Made by a program: the position numbers and the translations under genes
Part shown: positions 15,386 through 19,669 of the stretch, piece by piece
Layout of the letters: each line of letters starts with the position of its first letter
How positions within the stretch are numbered: position 1 is the first letter of the stretch
From: a virus
Taxonomy: Duplodnaviria > Heunggongvirae > Uroviricota > Caudoviricetes
Strand: one strand, 5' to 3'
DNA: 64,000 nucleotides
IMG/VR virus record: IMGVR_UViG_2541047860_000002
The notes under the pieces: generated by a model
What the model was told of the DNA's origin: nothing
Databases searched by the model: none
The model's input: the letters and a program-made list of their open reading frames with translations, nothing else

Positions 15386-15390
15386 AAAGA

Positions 15391-15417
15391 AGCCCGCCAT
15401 ACCAAGCGGGCTTTTTG
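15391..15417. terminator. bidirectional rho-independent terminator
   Basis: AGCCCGC-CATACCAA-GCGGGCT hairpin followed by a T-run, between convergent genes. Confidence 0.6.
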
Positions 15418-16194
15418 TTATTTCACCTCTTCTGCCGCTGTATCATTGGACTGTTCTTCTTTGGCCCGTTCTGCAATCGCCGCACGGCATTTCGCCCTGG
15501 CTGTAGCGATTGCTTCTGCTCGCACATCGTCTGGAATCGTTGACGTGATATACATATCCAGTTCTTCGGCACGGAATACTGTTTGGTCCAGATATTCGCG
15601 TAGCATCCAAGTAAATTCGAAATCACACGCGATAATCTCTGCGCTACCTTCTGCACCATTTGGGAAATGAATAAATGCCTGTTTAGCCAAACCGATAACA
15701 CGACATGCGGTTGCCAAAACAGCGACAACCAGGTTTACATTTTCACACGCTACGGGCTGATTAACGCCGGAGATTACTCCATTTAACTGTCGGTTATATG
15801 GAAGGTAGTTTGAGATGCGTTCTACGCGCCATGTGCCAGTCAGGCTGCCATTCTTAAAGATAATTGGTGTAACGGATAGCCCAAGCTCGCGTATAAGTCG
15901 TTGCGCTATAGCAGGATCATTAAACATGTCTAATGCTACACATTCGAAAGACTGTGCAAGGGTAAACAGTTCTTCCAGAGAGTAGTCTTTGCCCCTGGCG
16001 GTGATGTAACGATGAACGCCGCTTTCTGCATCGCTCCATATAGCTACGCCATGCTCTTCATTCAGCTCTTCATTAAAGCCGAGATACGTCATGATAGTAC
16101 GTTCAATCGTGTCAAACGGCAGTGACATGTCGGCGTTAACAGCCACCAGCAGGCCATTACGCAAGCGGTATTGAATTGCTTTAGTATTTTCCAC
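15418..16194 (-). CDS. hypothetical protein
   Basis: 258 aa, no recognised motif; first gene-distal member of the minus-strand operon ending at 18201. Confidence 0.5.
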   Translation of the reverse strand: MENTKAIQYRLRNGLLVAVNADMSLPFDTIERTIMTYLGFNEELNEEHGVAIWSDAESGVHRYITARGKDYSLEELFTLAQSFECVALDMFNDPAIAQRLIRELGLSVTPIIFKNGSLTGTWRVERISNYLPYNRQLNGVISGVNQPVACENVNLVVAVLATACRVIGLAKQAFIHFPNGAEGSAEIIACDFEFTWMLREYLDQTVFRAEELDMYITSTIPDDVRAEAIATARAKCRAAIAERAKEEQSNDTAAEEVK

Positions 16195-16200
16195 GTTAAA

Positions 16201-16878
16201 TCACTCCACTACAAACCAGTCACATGCCAGTAAGTCGCCTACAGAAGGAACCCACGGAACAACTACACCTTGTGCATTTTTTAAGGCGAAATAAGCACCA
16301 TACGGAACGAGGTCGCCGGGGAAATATCCCTTAATGGCTTCCATTCGTGCCGGGTACTGTCCTTCAGGAACCAGCCAGCAGAATTGGTTTTCGCCGTTCC
16401 ACCCGCGTCGAGCAACTTTCTTGCCATCCTTCAGCCACATCAGCGCGTCAGAAAAGTCGGCTGCTTCAAGGTCGATTTCTTCTTGCTGGGTGGTGATGCC
16501 ACCAGCAGAAATAGTTACGCTCCCGGTAAGATTAATCATCACGCCGTTGTCATCCGTAATGATGACCGTGGTTCCATTTTTGGAGGCGTCGTTAACCAGG
16601 CCATAGCGTTCCTCAAATGGTTTCTCCGGGGCATAGAACAGATAACCGTTTTCATAAACGATCAGATACCCGCCAGTTTTTGGTCGGTGTTTTTGTAAAA
16701 ACATTGCGTCAACACAAACTGTTGCCCCTTTTGGTTCAACGAGTTCGATGCAGCCCCAAAGTGGGGCATCAGTTACTCCGAAAATAACAACATTTTTGAT
16801 TTTCGATGCACTAACGTTTTTGTGAGCTTTGTATTTGGGAAGGAACTTAAAAAGCTCTTTCGTTGCCATGTTATTCAT
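16201..16878 (-). CDS. two-domain protein with C-terminal DUF2829 (Tad2-like) domain
   Basis: 225 aa; C-terminus FSDALMWLKDGKKVARRGWNG ... PWVPSVGDLLACDWFVVE matches the DUF2829 signature; N-terminal ~140 aa unassigned. Confidence 0.6.
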   Translation of the reverse strand: MNNMATKELFKFLPKYKAHKNVSASKIKNVVIFGVTDAPLWGCIELVEPKGATVCVDAMFLQKHRPKTGGYLIVYENGYLFYAPEKPFEERYGLVNDASKNGTTVIITDDNGVMINLTGSVTISAGGITTQQEEIDLEAADFSDALMWLKDGKKVARRGWNGENQFCWLVPEGQYPARMEAIKGYFPGDLVPYGAYFALKNAQGVVVPWVPSVGDLLACDWFVVE

Positions 16879-16892
16879 AGTCTTTTCTCTGC

Positions 16893-17387
16893 TTATAACT
16901 TTTCGTACTGAAGCGGTGAACGCTTAATTTCAAAGTGGCCTTCCGATGTGCTACCAAAGCCACCAGCACCACGTTCCGTTTCGTTGAGTTCCTCAACCTC
17001 GACTAGTGAGACTTGTTCAACTCGTTCAAAAATTCCTTGCATGACAGCCATTCCAGGCTTGAGACAAACGCCTTCCCCGCCGGGATCAGTAATCAGTTTT
17101 GCCATGATTTCGCCGCGATAATCGGAGTCGATAATTCCTACGCAGTTAGCCAGGCGAGTATGTTTTTTGCAGCCCAATCCGGATCGCGGATAGAGTTTCA
17201 GACACCAGCCGGGCGGGATCTCCATAGCCAGTCCGGTATACACCCACCAGCTTGAGGAAATTGCACCATTGCTATCGACGCATGGTTTTATTTCAACAGC
17301 CTCAAAATCCATCGCCGCCGATCCGGAGGTGGCATAAGCTGGAAGTTTTGCTGCCGGATGTAGGCGTTTCACTTTTACGTAAATCAT
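16893..17387 (-). CDS. dut: dUTP diphosphatase
   Basis: 164 aa with trimeric dUTPase motifs (AMDF, GIIDSDYRGE, RG.GGFGSTS). Confidence 0.9.
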   Translation of the reverse strand: MIYVKVKRLHPAAKLPAYATSGSAAMDFEAVEIKPCVDSNGAISSSWWVYTGLAMEIPPGWCLKLYPRSGLGCKKHTRLANCVGIIDSDYRGEIMAKLITDPGGEGVCLKPGMAVMQGIFERVEQVSLVEVEELNETERGAGGFGSTSEGHFEIKRSPLQYEKL

Positions 17388-17860
17388 TGTTTTTTAGCTC
17401 TCTGCGTGAAGGTGTAAACCCGACGTTTGATATGTGGAACGGTAGGAACAGGAAGACAGGAACTTTCAATAACTCCTTGCTCCTCCAGCGATCGCACCGC
17501 CCGCAAGAACTGCGACGTGTCGCCGCCAAACTGGCGGGCATAGGTGCTGCCGTTATGAAGTATTTGAGCTATTACCCGAGCTTTTGTCTGGCTGTCACGA
17601 TATGCGAATAGCCGCACGGCCTCTTCTGGCGCAATCGCTAACTGATAGCCTTTCCCGGCACGGTGTCGAATGAATCCATGCGCCAGTAGGTTTTTGAGTT
17701 CGTTACGAGTGCGAACAGATCCGTAATCCAGGAAGTGTGGATTGATAACGACTGGCTTAAACCATTCCGTAGGTGCTTTAGCTAATAGAGCTAACAGCTT
17801 CCCGGATAATTCTGGATAGGAAGACGGGTAACAATTCAGAGATGTGTAATAAGTTTTCAC
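17384..17860 (-). CDS. hypothetical protein
   Basis: 158 aa, translationally coupled to dut. Confidence 0.45.
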   Translation of the reverse strand: MKTYYTSLNCYPSSYPELSGKLLALLAKAPTEWFKPVVINPHFLDYGSVRTRNELKNLLAHGFIRHRAGKGYQLAIAPEEAVRLFAYRDSQTKARVIAQILHNGSTYARQFGGDTSQFLRAVRSLEEQGVIESSCLPVPTVPHIKRRVYTFTQRAKKQ

Positions 17861-18201
17861 CGACGCCCCCTTGCAGGATAGCGACCTGCATTAGTATCCG
17901 GTGCAATAAAGCCGGTAGTGGGGCGAGTGAAAGCGAGATTAATCTTCTCGACCATAGTGCGATAATTTTCCTGATAGTGGGCCAGGAGTTTTTCGGCGGC
18001 AATGATGGTTACTTTCCGGACGTAGCTTTCTGCTTCCTCCAGATTTCGCCAGTTTTTTTCGAGGGTAAACACAGGGACGGCCTCAAGCCCGGTCATGATG
18101 CCGAACACAACGACAGCATGACTGTTCTTAACACCAGCGGCGAAGGTTACGGTGTAACCATCCACCTTAAAGCGTCTTGATTCCGTGATTTGACTCTGCA
18201 A
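17857..18201 (-). CDS. hypothetical protein
   Basis: 114 aa; first gene of the minus-strand operon; recurrent motif about 60 bp upstream. Confidence 0.4.
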   Translation of the reverse strand: MQSQITESRRFKVDGYTVTFAAGVKNSHAVVVFGIMTGLEAVPVFTLEKNWRNLEEAESYVRKVTIIAAEKLLAHYQENYRTMVEKINLAFTRPTTGFIAPDTNAGRYPARGRR

Positions 18202-18259
18202 AGCACCCTCCGAAATAGGCGAGGGTACTTTACAGCAAAGATAACAATCTAAAAAGATG

Positions 18260-18276
18260 TGTTAGAAATTTAATTT
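18260..18276 (+). promoter_or_regulatory. recurrent motif TGTTAGAAATTTAATTT
   Basis: Overlaps the stop codon of the recombinase gene; reads TTTCTAACA toward the 17857-18201 operon on the minus strand. Confidence 0.4.
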
Positions 18277-19303
18277 ATGAATCCATCAGGCGGCTATTAG
18301 CCCCCACAGACACGCCGCCACGGCGCAGATACCGCATAAGTGTTTCCGGTTTCTTCCAGGTTCCTTCCTGCATGATCTCCACCATAGACACCTGCTTTTC
18401 TGCCATATCGATAGCAGCCCCGACACGAGCACTATGCCCGGTCCACGTCCGGTATCTCCCCTTGTTTGGAGTGGCATCTCTTTTATTCAGCAACACCCAG
18501 GCGTCACTAAATATTTTCTCCATTGCAGGTGCAGTAAGGGGCGTTGTCGTAATCCTGGCCTTATTGCTACGGTGTATCGGCGGGAACAGCACCGCGTCAG
18601 GATGTTCACGAAGCCCGGAAACATCCAGCCAGTCATTCAGCACAGCAGTAGTGCGACGGGAAAGCACCTTATCAAGCCCGGCGGCGGTCGTTATTGTCTT
18701 CGTGTGTGAAATATGTAGCGTGACAGTGTCACCTGTTTGGTCCAGATCTCCTACACGAATACGCGAGATTTCAGACATGCGCATCAGCGTATTGTATGCA
18801 ACAAAGAGAAAAGCCCGGTTGCGCAGGTCCACCAGCCGTTCTGACCTGGACAACAGGACGTCGAGCAGTTTCAGATCGTCCCACCGCAGCGGTATAGCCT
18901 GGCCTGTTCGTTCGCCTTTTTCCGTTGCCGCTTCACGCCGGATGCGCCGCATAGCCAGAGAAACACTTTTATCATCCGAAAGTGGCGGAAGGCCACAATG
19001 CGAAAGCAGCATGTTCAGCATGGCGTAGTGCTTATCAATGGTGGTCGAAGCCAGATCAGCATCATGCAGCTGAAGAAAATACTCGCGGGCCATCTCTGGA
19101 GAGATCGGGAACCAGGCGAGCTGGCGAGCGTGACACCATCTCGCCCAGGAGTGAAACACTAACCGGAGATCGCGCAAAGTATTAGGCGCGTAAGCCCCCT
19201 GGTCATTCATGAACCGCATAAAGTTTTCTGCGGCCTCCTGGTACTCTTTGCCAATGTTGCGCAGAAAACCACTGGAGCTGCCAGAGATAATTAATTCACT
19301 CAT
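18275..19303 (-). CDS. dre: Cre-family tyrosine site-specific recombinase, Dre-like
   Basis: 342 aa colinear with Cre, including the catalytic region (HSARVGAA ... Y near C-terminus); adjacent 32-bp site matches the rox site I recall for Dre of phage D6. Confidence 0.85.
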   Translation of the reverse strand: MSELIISGSSSGFLRNIGKEYQEAAENFMRFMNDQGAYAPNTLRDLRLVFHSWARWCHARQLAWFPISPEMAREYFLQLHDADLASTTIDKHYAMLNMLLSHCGLPPLSDDKSVSLAMRRIRREAATEKGERTGQAIPLRWDDLKLLDVLLSRSERLVDLRNRAFLFVAYNTLMRMSEISRIRVGDLDQTGDTVTLHISHTKTITTAAGLDKVLSRRTTAVLNDWLDVSGLREHPDAVLFPPIHRSNKARITTTPLTAPAMEKIFSDAWVLLNKRDATPNKGRYRTWTGHSARVGAAIDMAEKQVSMVEIMQEGTWKKPETLMRYLRRGGVSVGANSRLMDS

Positions 19304-19455
19304 GAAACTATTTAACCTCTATATACAGATGACGCTACGCGAAAAATATAAAAATGACAGGGTAGCTATAAGTTAATTTTCAAGATTCAAACCTTTGATT
19401 CGAGGCACGTATTTTCAGTGATGTCAACACTGATCATCCACCCATGATTATAGCT

Positions 19456-19487
19456 TAACTTTAAATAATGCCAATTATTTAAAGTTA
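19456..19487. other. rox-like recombination target site (14-4-14 inverted repeat)
   Basis: TAACTTTAAATAAT-GCCA-ATTATTTAAAGTTA, perfect 14-bp arms, about 150 bp upstream of the recombinase start. Confidence 0.8.
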
Positions 19488-19669
19488 TAAAGTGCCAATT
19501 TTTTTTAATCCATCATAGATTGATGATGACCAGTAACACGTTGCCTTCATGGTCTTTAATTTGCGAAGTGTGGTTTCTACGGTTGGTTTTCTAAAATTGA
19601 TGACAAAAAATCACAGTTCGATCCTTTACTCACTCTGTTATTCGACATAAATTTGTCATAGTAATTTTA

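What the first reader, a model, noticed from the sequence alone, without database searches (positions are those of the whole stretch)
15418..18201. Five-gene minus-strand operon of unknowns built around a dUTPase
Genes 17857-18201, 17384-17860, dut (16893-17387), the DUF2829 fusion (16201-16878) and 15418-16194 are tightly coupled, preceded by the recurrent motif and closed by a bidirectional terminator. I do not recall a dUTPase in P1. Phage dUTPases can act as signalling proteins, and pairing with a nucleotide-sponge-like domain makes this the most plausible place for an uncharacterised anti-defence or regulatory module.
Basis: inference. Interest (0 to 1): 0.7.

Follow-up and report, generated by a model that had tools for sequence, protein, structure and literature searches.

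The report
Early phage-plasmid operon carrying Tad2 sponge
The five genes form a real operon of a D6-type phage-plasmid (not P1): three lineage-specific genes of unknown function plus two optional cargo genes, an ordinary-looking dUTPase and a fast-shuffling Tad2-type "sponge" for bacterial immune signals. The anti-defence guess is therefore right for one gene, and that gene was already flagged by others.

Summary
Five co-directional minus-strand ORFs sit at exactly the stated coordinates. Two junctions overlap by 4 nt and two have gaps of 14 and 6 nt. A 17-bp recurrent motif precedes them and a bidirectional hairpin terminator closes them.

The window is a D6-type phage-plasmid (98% identical to phage D6; 100% identical copies occur on E. 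coli and Salmonella plasmids). The operon is D6 orf117-orf113.

The operon is not built around the dUTPase. Relatives show a constant core: a 114-aa protein, a 158-aa tandem winged-helix protein and an IsaA homologue. dut and the DUF2829 gene are present or absent independently.

The DUF2829 protein is a Tad2-family sponge (E ~1e-20 to solved ModTad2; core pocket residues kept). It is fused to a domain homologous to the phage L capsid decoration protein Dec. In otherwise near-identical backbones this gene is mosaic, truncated or missing.

The motif resembles a P1 C1 operator and also lies upstream of c1, ref and repL. The first gene has a TTG start, and its ribosome-binding site is buried in a conserved hairpin.

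IsaA and the 114-aa protein have no recognisable fold relatives.

Tad2 in D6-like elements is already annotated by RefSeq and reported in a 2025 preprint. Interest is moderate.

The parts
18260..18276 (-). 17-bp operator-like motif AAATTAAATTTCTAACA, overlapping the dre stop codon, upstream of the first gene
   Evidence: The core occurs 11 times against 0.46 expected. Ten of the 11 copies are intergenic, including sites upstream of c1, ref and repL. The first half equals that of the P1 Ossb C1 operator, whose reverse complement is AAATTAATTAGAGCAAT.
18196..18235 (-). 15-bp-stem RNA hairpin that pairs the Shine-Dalgarno GGAGGG and the TTG start codon of the 114-aa gene
   Evidence: The 47-nt segment folds at -25.6 kcal/mol, z -6.1. 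The 73-nt leader gives z -5.7. A hairpin pairing the ribosome-binding site is kept in four diverged relatives with compensatory changes: CCCTC/GAGGG, CCCCCG/CGGGGG, TCCTCC/GGAGGA.
17857..18201 (-). 114-aa protein (D6 orf117/orf3; phrog_1968), TTG start; four-strand meander sheet plus two helices, with a disordered C-tail carrying an invariant GFIAP motif
17384..17860 (-). 158-aa protein (D6 orf116/orf2; phrog_6669), probably a tandem winged helix; the fastest-evolving gene of the cluster
   Evidence: Only 4 clusters in 1.84 billion representative proteins. Profile hits are all weak but all winged-helix: EutK wHTH E 0.017 at profile positions 17-75, ArsR at 81-157, Pfam TrmB 2.5e-5 in one member.
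16893..17387 (-). dut, trimeric-type dUTP diphosphatase (164 aa); optional in relatives
   Evidence: PF00692 E 1.7e-14. NCBIfam NF001862 scores 121.5 bits against a cutoff of 103. Motifs I, II, III and V align with solved enzymes; motif IV reads GMAVMQ, without the usual Arg. Absent in L005-7 and L054.
16498..16878 (-). N-terminal part of the 225-aa protein: Dec-like OB fold (aa ~10-95) plus a stalk-like segment (aa ~100-127)
   Evidence: A six-sequence profile hits phage L Dec (6e3c) at E 6.1e-07, profile positions 16-122 against Dec residues 24-121. The single sequence gives E 0.009. The domain stands alone or has other partners in other phages. Nucleotides 16582-16818 (aa 21-99) are deleted in frame in the D6 reference.
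16204..16470 (-). C-terminal Tad2-like (DUF2829) domain of the 225-aa protein
   Evidence: PF11195 E 1.8e-22. PDB 9eib ModTad2 and 8v3e Tad2 at E ~8e-21. Residues matching SPO1 Tad2 W25, N26, W73, S76 and D79 are conserved.
15418..16194 (-). 258-aa IsaA homologue (D6 orf113; phrog_2326); confident model with an orphan fold
15387..15416 (.). bidirectional intrinsic terminator shared with convergent phd-doc-pdcA
   Evidence: sequence.
18275..19303 (-). dre (Cre-type tyrosine recombinase), same strand and immediately upstream. No intrinsic terminator lies between it and the operon, so read-through is possible.
   Evidence: 99.7% identical to D6 Dre. Pfam Phage_integrase. The rox inverted repeat is at 19456-19487. 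A promoter-like site with 11 of 12 matches is at 19474-19447.

Best explanation
This is the accessory operon that D6-type phage-plasmids carry directly downstream of their Cre-type recombinase (D6 orf117-orf113). I read it as a repressor-gated unit that is switched on when the prophage repressor is lifted.

It has two kinds of content. The first is a conserved, lineage-specific core. This comprises a 114-aa protein kept at low translation by a TTG start and a hairpin that buries its ribosome-binding site, a fast-evolving tandem winged-helix 158-aa protein (probably DNA-binding), and an IsaA homologue. The second is two optional nucleotide-related cargo genes.

One cargo gene is a trimeric-type dUTPase. 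By established knowledge of the enzyme family, it would lower dUTP and keep uracil out of replicating phage DNA.

The other cargo gene encodes a Tad2-family sponge fused to a Dec-like OB/stalk domain. By analogy with solved relatives, it would form an oligomer that sequesters TIR-derived signals (gcADPR or His-ADPR type) and possibly cyclic nucleotides, so that Thoeris-type effectors are never activated. This sponge gene is a recombination hot spot.

Shown here: the gene order, the homologies, the conserved core pocket residues, the motif distribution, the hairpin and the allele mosaicism. Inferred: C1 binding, early timing, ligand identity, and any function of the three core proteins.
For: Identity of the element: 98.3% identical to phage D6; 100% identical operon on PLSDB plasmids CP111090.1 and NZ_CP157120.1 and on the RefSeq plasmid NZ_CP122593.1.

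Core versus cargo: the Raoultella plasmid L004 and S. Typhi pK91 (L011) keep 114, 158, dut and IsaA but lack tad2. L005-7 lack both dut and tad2. L054 has tad2 but no dut.

Tad2: PF11195 E 1.8e-22. ModTad2/Tad2 structures at E ~8e-21. The W, N, W, S, D residues of the SPO1 Tad2 pocket are conserved. The ModTad2 clade, including an enterobacterial member, inhibits type II Thoeris (10.1101/2024.01.03.573942). The family also covers Pycsar, CBASS and type IV Thoeris (PMC12393519).

Arms-race signature: where Dre, 114, 158 and IsaA are 96-100% identical to the window, the Tad2 ORF ranges from about 74 to 100% and can be truncated. N-domain, stalk and Tad2-domain alleles combine freely. Differences in the Tad2 domain concentrate in the loop after beta2, which forms the second pocket in ModTad2/HgmTad2.

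Cassette exchange with P1-like plasmids: about 85% nucleotide identity is confined to window 16154-16899, while the flanking IsaA is only 48% identical in protein.

Repressor gating: the 17-mer shares AAATTA(A/G)TT with the P1 C1 operator and sits upstream of c1, ref and repL, all C1-controlled in P1. In P1-like phages the tad2-isaA pair lies in the ssb operon behind operator Ossb.

dut: NCBIfam equivalog above cutoff.
Confidence: 0.6

Rival explanations
1. The cluster is a cargo hot spot rather than a module. The position downstream of the recombinase is simply a permissive insertion site where unrelated accessory genes (dut, tad2, extra ORFs) accumulate. The five genes share a transcript but no common purpose.
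For: dut and tad2 are gained and lost independently. Some relatives carry an extra 364-aa ORF after isaA in place of phd-doc. Others have arsenic-resistance or T6SS-related cargo right after the cluster. The isaA region is one of eight hypervariable regions in P1-like plasmids (PMC9603915).
Against: The 114-158-IsaA trio keeps its order and its position next to the recombinase down to 27-55% protein identity. In every locus examined that has tad2, it lies directly upstream of isaA, in both the D6-like and the P1-like lineage. The leader hairpin and TTG start are conserved.
Confidence: 0.25
2. The conserved core (114, 158, IsaA) serves prophage-plasmid housekeeping linked to Dre/rox or to the immunity switch. 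For example, the winged-helix protein could be a lineage-specific regulator. On this view the anti-defence gene is a passenger.
For: The core is immediately downstream of the Cre-type recombinase and close to c1 in every locus examined. The 158-aa protein looks DNA-binding and diverges roughly in step with C1: 80/72%, 68/65%, 35/27%. Expression of the first gene is tightly restrained.
Against: P1 has Cre, C1 and IsaA but no 114-aa or 158-aa homologue. In P1-like phages isaA sits with ssb, far from cre. No binding sites or targets have been identified.
Confidence: 0.12
3. One reading: the dUTPase is a signalling protein of the staphylococcal-phage kind, and it works together with the sponge domain as a regulatory or anti-defence pair.
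For: The dut product has a 16-aa tail after motif V, and the segment between motifs I and II varies among relatives. Motif IV is atypical.
Against: There is no extra insertion between motifs III and IV in the alignment to solved enzymes. dut and tad2 occur without each other. The protein scores above the NCBIfam equivalog cutoff for the enzyme. No partner repressor is evident.
Confidence: 0.04

Closest known systems
Phage D6 orf117-orf113 (NC_050154/MF356679; orf3, orf2 and dut in AY753669)
   Same: Same genes in the same order and position between dre and doc/pdcA, at 97-100% protein identity.
   Different: The D6 reference carries an in-frame 79-aa deletion (aa 21-99) that removes the OB fold of the DUF2829 protein, leaving 146 aa against 225 aa here. 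D6 annotation gives no functions beyond dut and DUF2829.
Tad2 sponges: ModTad2 (9eib), SPO1 Tad2 (8sme), HgmTad2/AcrIIA7 (8kbi, 9kzr)
   Same: DUF2829 fold by sequence. About half the residues match ModTad2 in the printed alignment. The core pocket residues W, N, W, S, D are kept. The loop after beta2 has ModTad2-like length.
   Different: The Tad2 chains matched in the PDB are 88-104 residues long, apart from a 158-residue AcrIIA7 chain with a roughly 45-residue N-terminal extension. Here the domain is the C-terminal third of a 225-aa protein with a Dec-like N-terminal part. Five ligand-contact residues differ, so specificity is unknown. Function is untested.
P1-family ssb-(tad2)-isaA early operon behind C1 operator Ossb (Op21)
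   Same: The same tad2-isaA pair follows ssb in SJ46, Ro157c2YLVW and RCS47. The Tad2 domain of SJ46 is 100% identical to the window's. P1 annotates a C1 operator at the head of this operon.
   Different: In D6-type elements the pair sits behind dre with the 114-aa, 158-aa and dut genes, and D6 has no annotated ssb. P1 itself lacks tad2. IsaA is only 48% identical.
Phage L capsid decoration protein Dec (6e3c; PMC6449081)
   Same: The N-terminal domain profile matches Dec residues 24-121, covering the OB fold and the start of the beta-helix stalk, at E 6.1e-07. Some homologues are annotated as decoration proteins or lie in head modules.
   Different: Here the domain is fused to a cytoplasmic sponge domain and encoded in a non-structural operon. 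Capsid binding and trimerisation are untested.

Membership tests
Tad2 / DUF2829 (PF11195) immune-signal sponge | Domain match above the curated threshold | tested here: met
   80 bits against a cutoff of 25, E 1.8e-22, residues 141-224. PDB ModTad2/Tad2 at E ~8e-21.
Tad2 / DUF2829 (PF11195) immune-signal sponge | Ligand-pocket residues of SPO1 Tad2 (W25, N26, W73, D79, plus S76, T78, I63, T65, D67, H71) | tested here: inconclusive
   W160, N161, W209, S212 and D215 are conserved. I63, T65, D67, H71 and T78 are replaced by L, N, Q, V and G.
Tad2 / DUF2829 (PF11195) immune-signal sponge | Homotetramer that binds gcADPR, His-ADPR or cyclic nucleotides and blocks Thoeris, Pycsar or CBASS | not testable with these tools
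   This needs biochemistry and plaque assays.
Trimeric dUTPase (PF00692; NCBIfam NF001862) | Score above the equivalog cutoff, and the five conserved motifs | tested here: inconclusive
   121.5 bits against 103. Motifs I (AAMD), II (PRSG), III (GIIDSDYRGE) and V (RGAGGFGST) are present. Motif IV is GMAVMQ, with Ala where the aligned solved enzymes have Arg.
Signalling (SaPI-derepressing type) phage dUTPase | Extra divergent insertion (motif VI) in the central region between motifs III and IV (feature recalled from my own knowledge of the family) | tested here: not met
   The alignment to solved enzymes is gapless from motif II to motif V.
IsaA (phrog_2326) | Full-length sequence homology to P1 IsaA | tested here: met
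   phrog_2326 E 5e-136. 48% identity over 249 residues to P1 IsaA. The family has no known function.
Dec-type OB-fold decoration protein | Sequence homology across the OB fold and stalk | tested here: met
   Profile against 6e3c: E 6.1e-07, 32.9 bits.
Dec-type OB-fold decoration protein | Trimer that binds capsid quasi-threefold sites | not testable with these tools
   No structure model or experiment is available.
C1-repressor-controlled operon (P1 type) | Asymmetric 17-bp operator at the promoter, recurring at other C1-controlled genes | tested here: inconclusive
   The motif is enriched 11 against 0.46. It lies upstream of c1, ref and repL. Half of it equals the P1 operator. However, no strong promoter is adjacent and binding is untested.
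Winged-helix DNA-binding protein (158-aa gene) | Significant match to a wHTH family | tested here: inconclusive
   Only weak hits, but all are wHTH: EutK E 0.017, ArsR E 0.4. TrmB at 2.5e-5 in one of 12 members.

The most novel reading that the evidence does not exclude
The Dec-like OB/stalk part of the sponge protein is not a passive appendage. It may be a second, independently evolving recognition module: a second ligand or target site, or a trimerising element that turns the Tad2 tetramer into a higher-order assembly. The invariant neighbours (IsaA, always directly downstream of tad2, plus the translationally throttled 114-aa protein and the fast-evolving winged-helix protein) would then form an undescribed counter-defence or host-takeover system of D6/P1-family phage-plasmids.
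Probability: 0.2. Interest if true: 0.65.

Novelty: new variant of a known kind. Interest (0 to 1): 0.4.

Why it matters
D6- and P1-like phage-plasmids are common in pathogenic E. coli, Shigella and Salmonella. This operon is on about 2% of complete E. coli genomes.

If the sponge works as predicted, it helps explain how these elements establish themselves in hosts with TIR-based immunity. The naturally shuffled alleles (three Tad2-domain types, several N-domain types and a natural OB deletion) form a ready-made panel for mapping what sets ligand specificity in the Tad2 family.

The Dec-like fusion partner, IsaA with its orphan fold, and the conserved hairpin over the first gene's start site are concrete, cheap targets. 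Each could reveal a new function, but none is established here.

Tried and rejected
1. Pfam, NCBIfam, PADLOC and PDB sequence searches of the 114-aa, 158-aa and 258-aa proteins gave nothing significant.
3. BFVD Foldseek for IsaA found only P1's own protein.
6. The afdb50 library was unavailable.
7. An exhaustive HMMER search with the 158-aa protein found only 4 clusters.
8. Rfam found only a sub-threshold Trp-leader match on the terminator.
9. The repeat scan found nothing beyond rox and the operator-like copies.
10. The idea that the 114-aa protein replaces P1 Ssb rests only on its position and a weak Pur-alpha-like sheet, so I did not pursue it.
11. The anti-CRISPR reading (AcrIIA7) has little support. 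The family's demonstrated activity is signal sequestration (10.1101/2023.05.01.538930).
12. The extra 364-aa ORF after isaA in pF719-4 has no Pfam match.
Full report

Yes. Two junctions overlap by 4 nt (GTGA, ATGA). The other two have gaps of 14 and 6 nt.

The 'recurrent motif' has the core TTTCTAACA. It occurs 11 times in the window against 0.46 expected, and none of 100 shuffles reached 11. The core extends to a 17-mer, AAATTAnTTTTCTAACA. One copy, at 18260-18276, lies between the stop codon of the upstream recombinase gene and the first gene.

The cluster ends in an 11-bp-stem hairpin with T-runs on both strands at 15387-15416. This terminator is shared with the convergent phd-doc-pdcA genes.

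**2. What element is this?**

The region is 98.3% identical to Escherichia phage D6. The upstream gene encodes a Cre-type recombinase 99.7% identical to that of D6, which GenBank record AY753669 names dre. It sits next to a 14-4-14 rox inverted repeat. Copies 100% identical over the operon occur on roughly 92-kb plasmids of Salmonella and E. coli.

The five genes are D6 orf117 to orf113, annotated as hypothetical, hypothetical, dUTP diphosphatase, DUF2829 and 'similar to P1 isaA'. At least 80% of the region is present on 115 PLSDB plasmids and in 98 of 5,426 complete E. coli genomes. Nearly all copies are on plasmids. But the element is not P1.

**3. The individual genes**

*dut.* It passes the NCBIfam equivalog cutoff (121.5 against 103 bits). 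Motifs I, II, III and V align with solved trimeric dUTPases. Motif IV reads GMAVMQ, without the usual arginine. A 16-aa tail follows motif V. There is no central insertion of the kind I recall from the signalling dUTPases of staphylococcal phages.

*The 225-aa protein.* Its C-terminal 89 residues are a Tad2-like domain (PF11195, E 1.8e-22). The closest solved relatives are ModTad2 (9eib) and Tad2 (8v3e) at E about 8e-21, followed by HgmTad2/AcrIIA7 and SPO1 Tad2.
- Using the SPO1 Tad2 contacts listed in 10.1101/2023.05.01.538930, the core residues W25, N26, W73, S76 and D79 are conserved here.
- I63, T65, D67, H71 and T78 are replaced by L, N, Q, V and G. A nucleotide-sponge function is therefore likely, but the ligand cannot be named.
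- The ModTad2 clade inhibits type II Thoeris by binding His-ADPR and also binds cUMP. The family as a whole covers several signal types.

*The N-terminal part of the same protein.* A six-sequence profile hits the phage L capsid decoration protein Dec at E 6.1e-07. The match covers Dec's OB fold and the start of its beta-helix stalk (domain limits from PMC6449081). This domain also occurs in three other settings:
- alone in a head-gene module (Ralstonia phage GP4);
- fused to Tad2 in the unrelated Klebsiella phage SopranoGao;
- joined to a different C-terminus in Pseudomonas phage Dolphis, where it is annotated as a decoration protein.

*The 158-aa protein.* It belongs to a tiny family: 4 clusters among 1.84 billion representatives. 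Its only matches are weak, but all are winged-helix domains, one for each half of the protein.

*The 114-aa protein.* The model shows a four-strand sheet, two helices and a disordered tail with an invariant GFIAP motif. There is no informative fold match.

**4. Comparative anatomy**

The operon is not built around dut.
- A Raoultella plasmid and S. Typhi pK91 have recombinase, 114, 158, dut and IsaA but no tad2.
- Three metagenomic 89-kb elements have recombinase, 110, 175 and IsaA only.
- Locus L054 has tad2 but no dut.

The constant part is therefore 114 + 158 + IsaA next to the recombinase. dut and tad2 are independent additions.

In P1-like phages (SJ46, Ro157c2YLVW, RCS47) the same tad2-isaA pair follows ssb. 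In P1 that operon starts with the C1 operator Ossb. P1 itself lacks tad2. The annotated N-terminal 56 residues of P1 'IsaA' match almost exactly (one substitution) the upstream leader that precedes tad2 in SJ46.

**5. The sponge gene is a hot spot**

I compared 36 IMG/VR loci.
- Where Dre, 114, 158 and IsaA are 96-100% identical to the window, the Tad2 ORF ranges from about 74% to 100% identity and can be truncated.
- In more diverged backbones it falls to 41-65% or is absent.

The protein is mosaic.
- OB-fold alleles (about 100%, 64%, 54%, or deleted), two stalk alleles and three Tad2-domain alleles occur in most combinations.
- The Tad2-domain alleles differ mainly in the loop after beta2. 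In ModTad2 and HgmTad2 this region forms a second ligand pocket. One allele also changes a core pocket residue (N161K).

Similarity to P1-like plasmids (about 85% nucleotide identity) is confined to window 16154-16899. That is the gene, its ribosome-binding site and the first 40 nt of isaA. This pattern is what one expects of a counter-defence gene under diversifying selection and cassette exchange.

**6. Regulation**

The 17-mer shares its first half with the P1 C1 operator. The reverse complement of P1 Ossb is AAATTAATTAGAGCAAT; the motif here is AAATTAGTTTTCTAACA. Ten of the 11 copies are intergenic. They include sites upstream of c1, ref and repL, which are C1-controlled in P1. I infer that it is the operator of the D6-type repressor and that the operon is repressed in the prophage state.

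No strong sigma-70-like promoter lies next to it, and no terminator separates it from dre. Read-through from the dre promoter is therefore possible.

The first gene starts with TTG in the window and in at least two diverged relatives (L004, L005). Its GGAGGG ribosome-binding site and start codon are paired in a 15-bp stem (-25.6 kcal/mol, z -6.1). Diverged relatives keep a hairpin over the ribosome-binding site through compensatory changes. Translation of the first gene is probably restrained.

**7. Verdict**

That gene is already recognised: RefSeq names some copies 'Thoeris anti-defense Tad2 family protein', and a 2025 preprint finds Tad2 in 93% of D6-like and 56% of P1-like phage-plasmids.

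As far as I could find, four things are new here:
- the Dec-like nature of the fusion partner;
- the domain-level shuffling of alleles;
- the definition of the conserved three-gene core;
- the hairpin over the first gene's start.

The core proteins remain functionally unknown.

Noticed in passing
window 18196-18235 (-): A strong hairpin pairs both the Shine-Dalgarno sequence and the TTG start codon of the 114-aa gene. Diverged relatives keep a hairpin over the ribosome-binding site through compensatory changes, and the start is TTG in the window and in at least two diverged relatives (L004, L005). How the hairpin would be opened is unknown.
   Followed up: partly
window 4345, 5003, 8179, 18260, 19670 (plus a 1-mismatch copy at 19588), 28898, 29054, 30303, 31347, 41249, 42448: A 17-bp motif, AAATTAnTTTTCTAACA, occurs at 11 sites, 10 of them intergenic, including upstream of c1, ref, repL and a pdcB-like HNH gene. 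Its first half equals that of the P1 C1 operator, so it is probably the D6-type repressor operator set. The same core also occurs in a Raoultella element whose C1 is only 43% identical (L004).
   Followed up: partly
L002 (P1 21569-22531) compared with L003 (SJ46): The annotated P1 IsaA (320 aa) begins with 56 residues that match almost exactly (one substitution) the upstream extension annotated on the SJ46 tad2-fusion gene. P1 looks like a precise loss of the tad2 gene, and the P1 isaA start is probably mis-set.
   Followed up: partly
window 16893-17387; L004 6823-7320: The dUTPase lacks the conserved Arg of motif IV (GMAVMQ) and carries a 16-aa tail after motif V. The Raoultella homologue lacks the tail but has a longer insertion between motifs I and II.
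   Followed up: no
L014 390-1484 (E. coli pF719-4); also L035, L036, L040, L041, L052: Some D6-like elements lack phd-doc downstream of isaA. At least pF719-4 has instead an overlapping 364-aa ORF with no Pfam match, which extends the operon to six genes.
   Followed up: partly
L005-L007 8900-10500; L004 8435-12243: Related phage-plasmids carry very different cargo right after the cluster. The 89-kb metagenomic elements have T6SS-related genes (Hcp, Tlde1 domain). The Raoultella plasmid has an arsenic-resistance set (ArsR-like HTH, ArsD, ArsA).
   Followed up: no
NZ_CP122593.1 and NZ_CP122597.1 (E. coli ETEC6335): One strain carries both a D6-like plasmid (operon 100% identical to the window) and a second, roughly 93-kb plasmid that shows the tad2-only match pattern typical of P1-like plasmids. 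Each has its own tad2-fusion gene, which gives an opportunity for the allele exchange seen.
   Followed up: no
window 19447-19487 (-): The only strong sigma-70-like site in the region (TTGGCA-16-TATAAT, 11 of 12 matches) has its -35 hexamer inside the spacer of the rox recombination site, upstream of dre.
   Followed up: no
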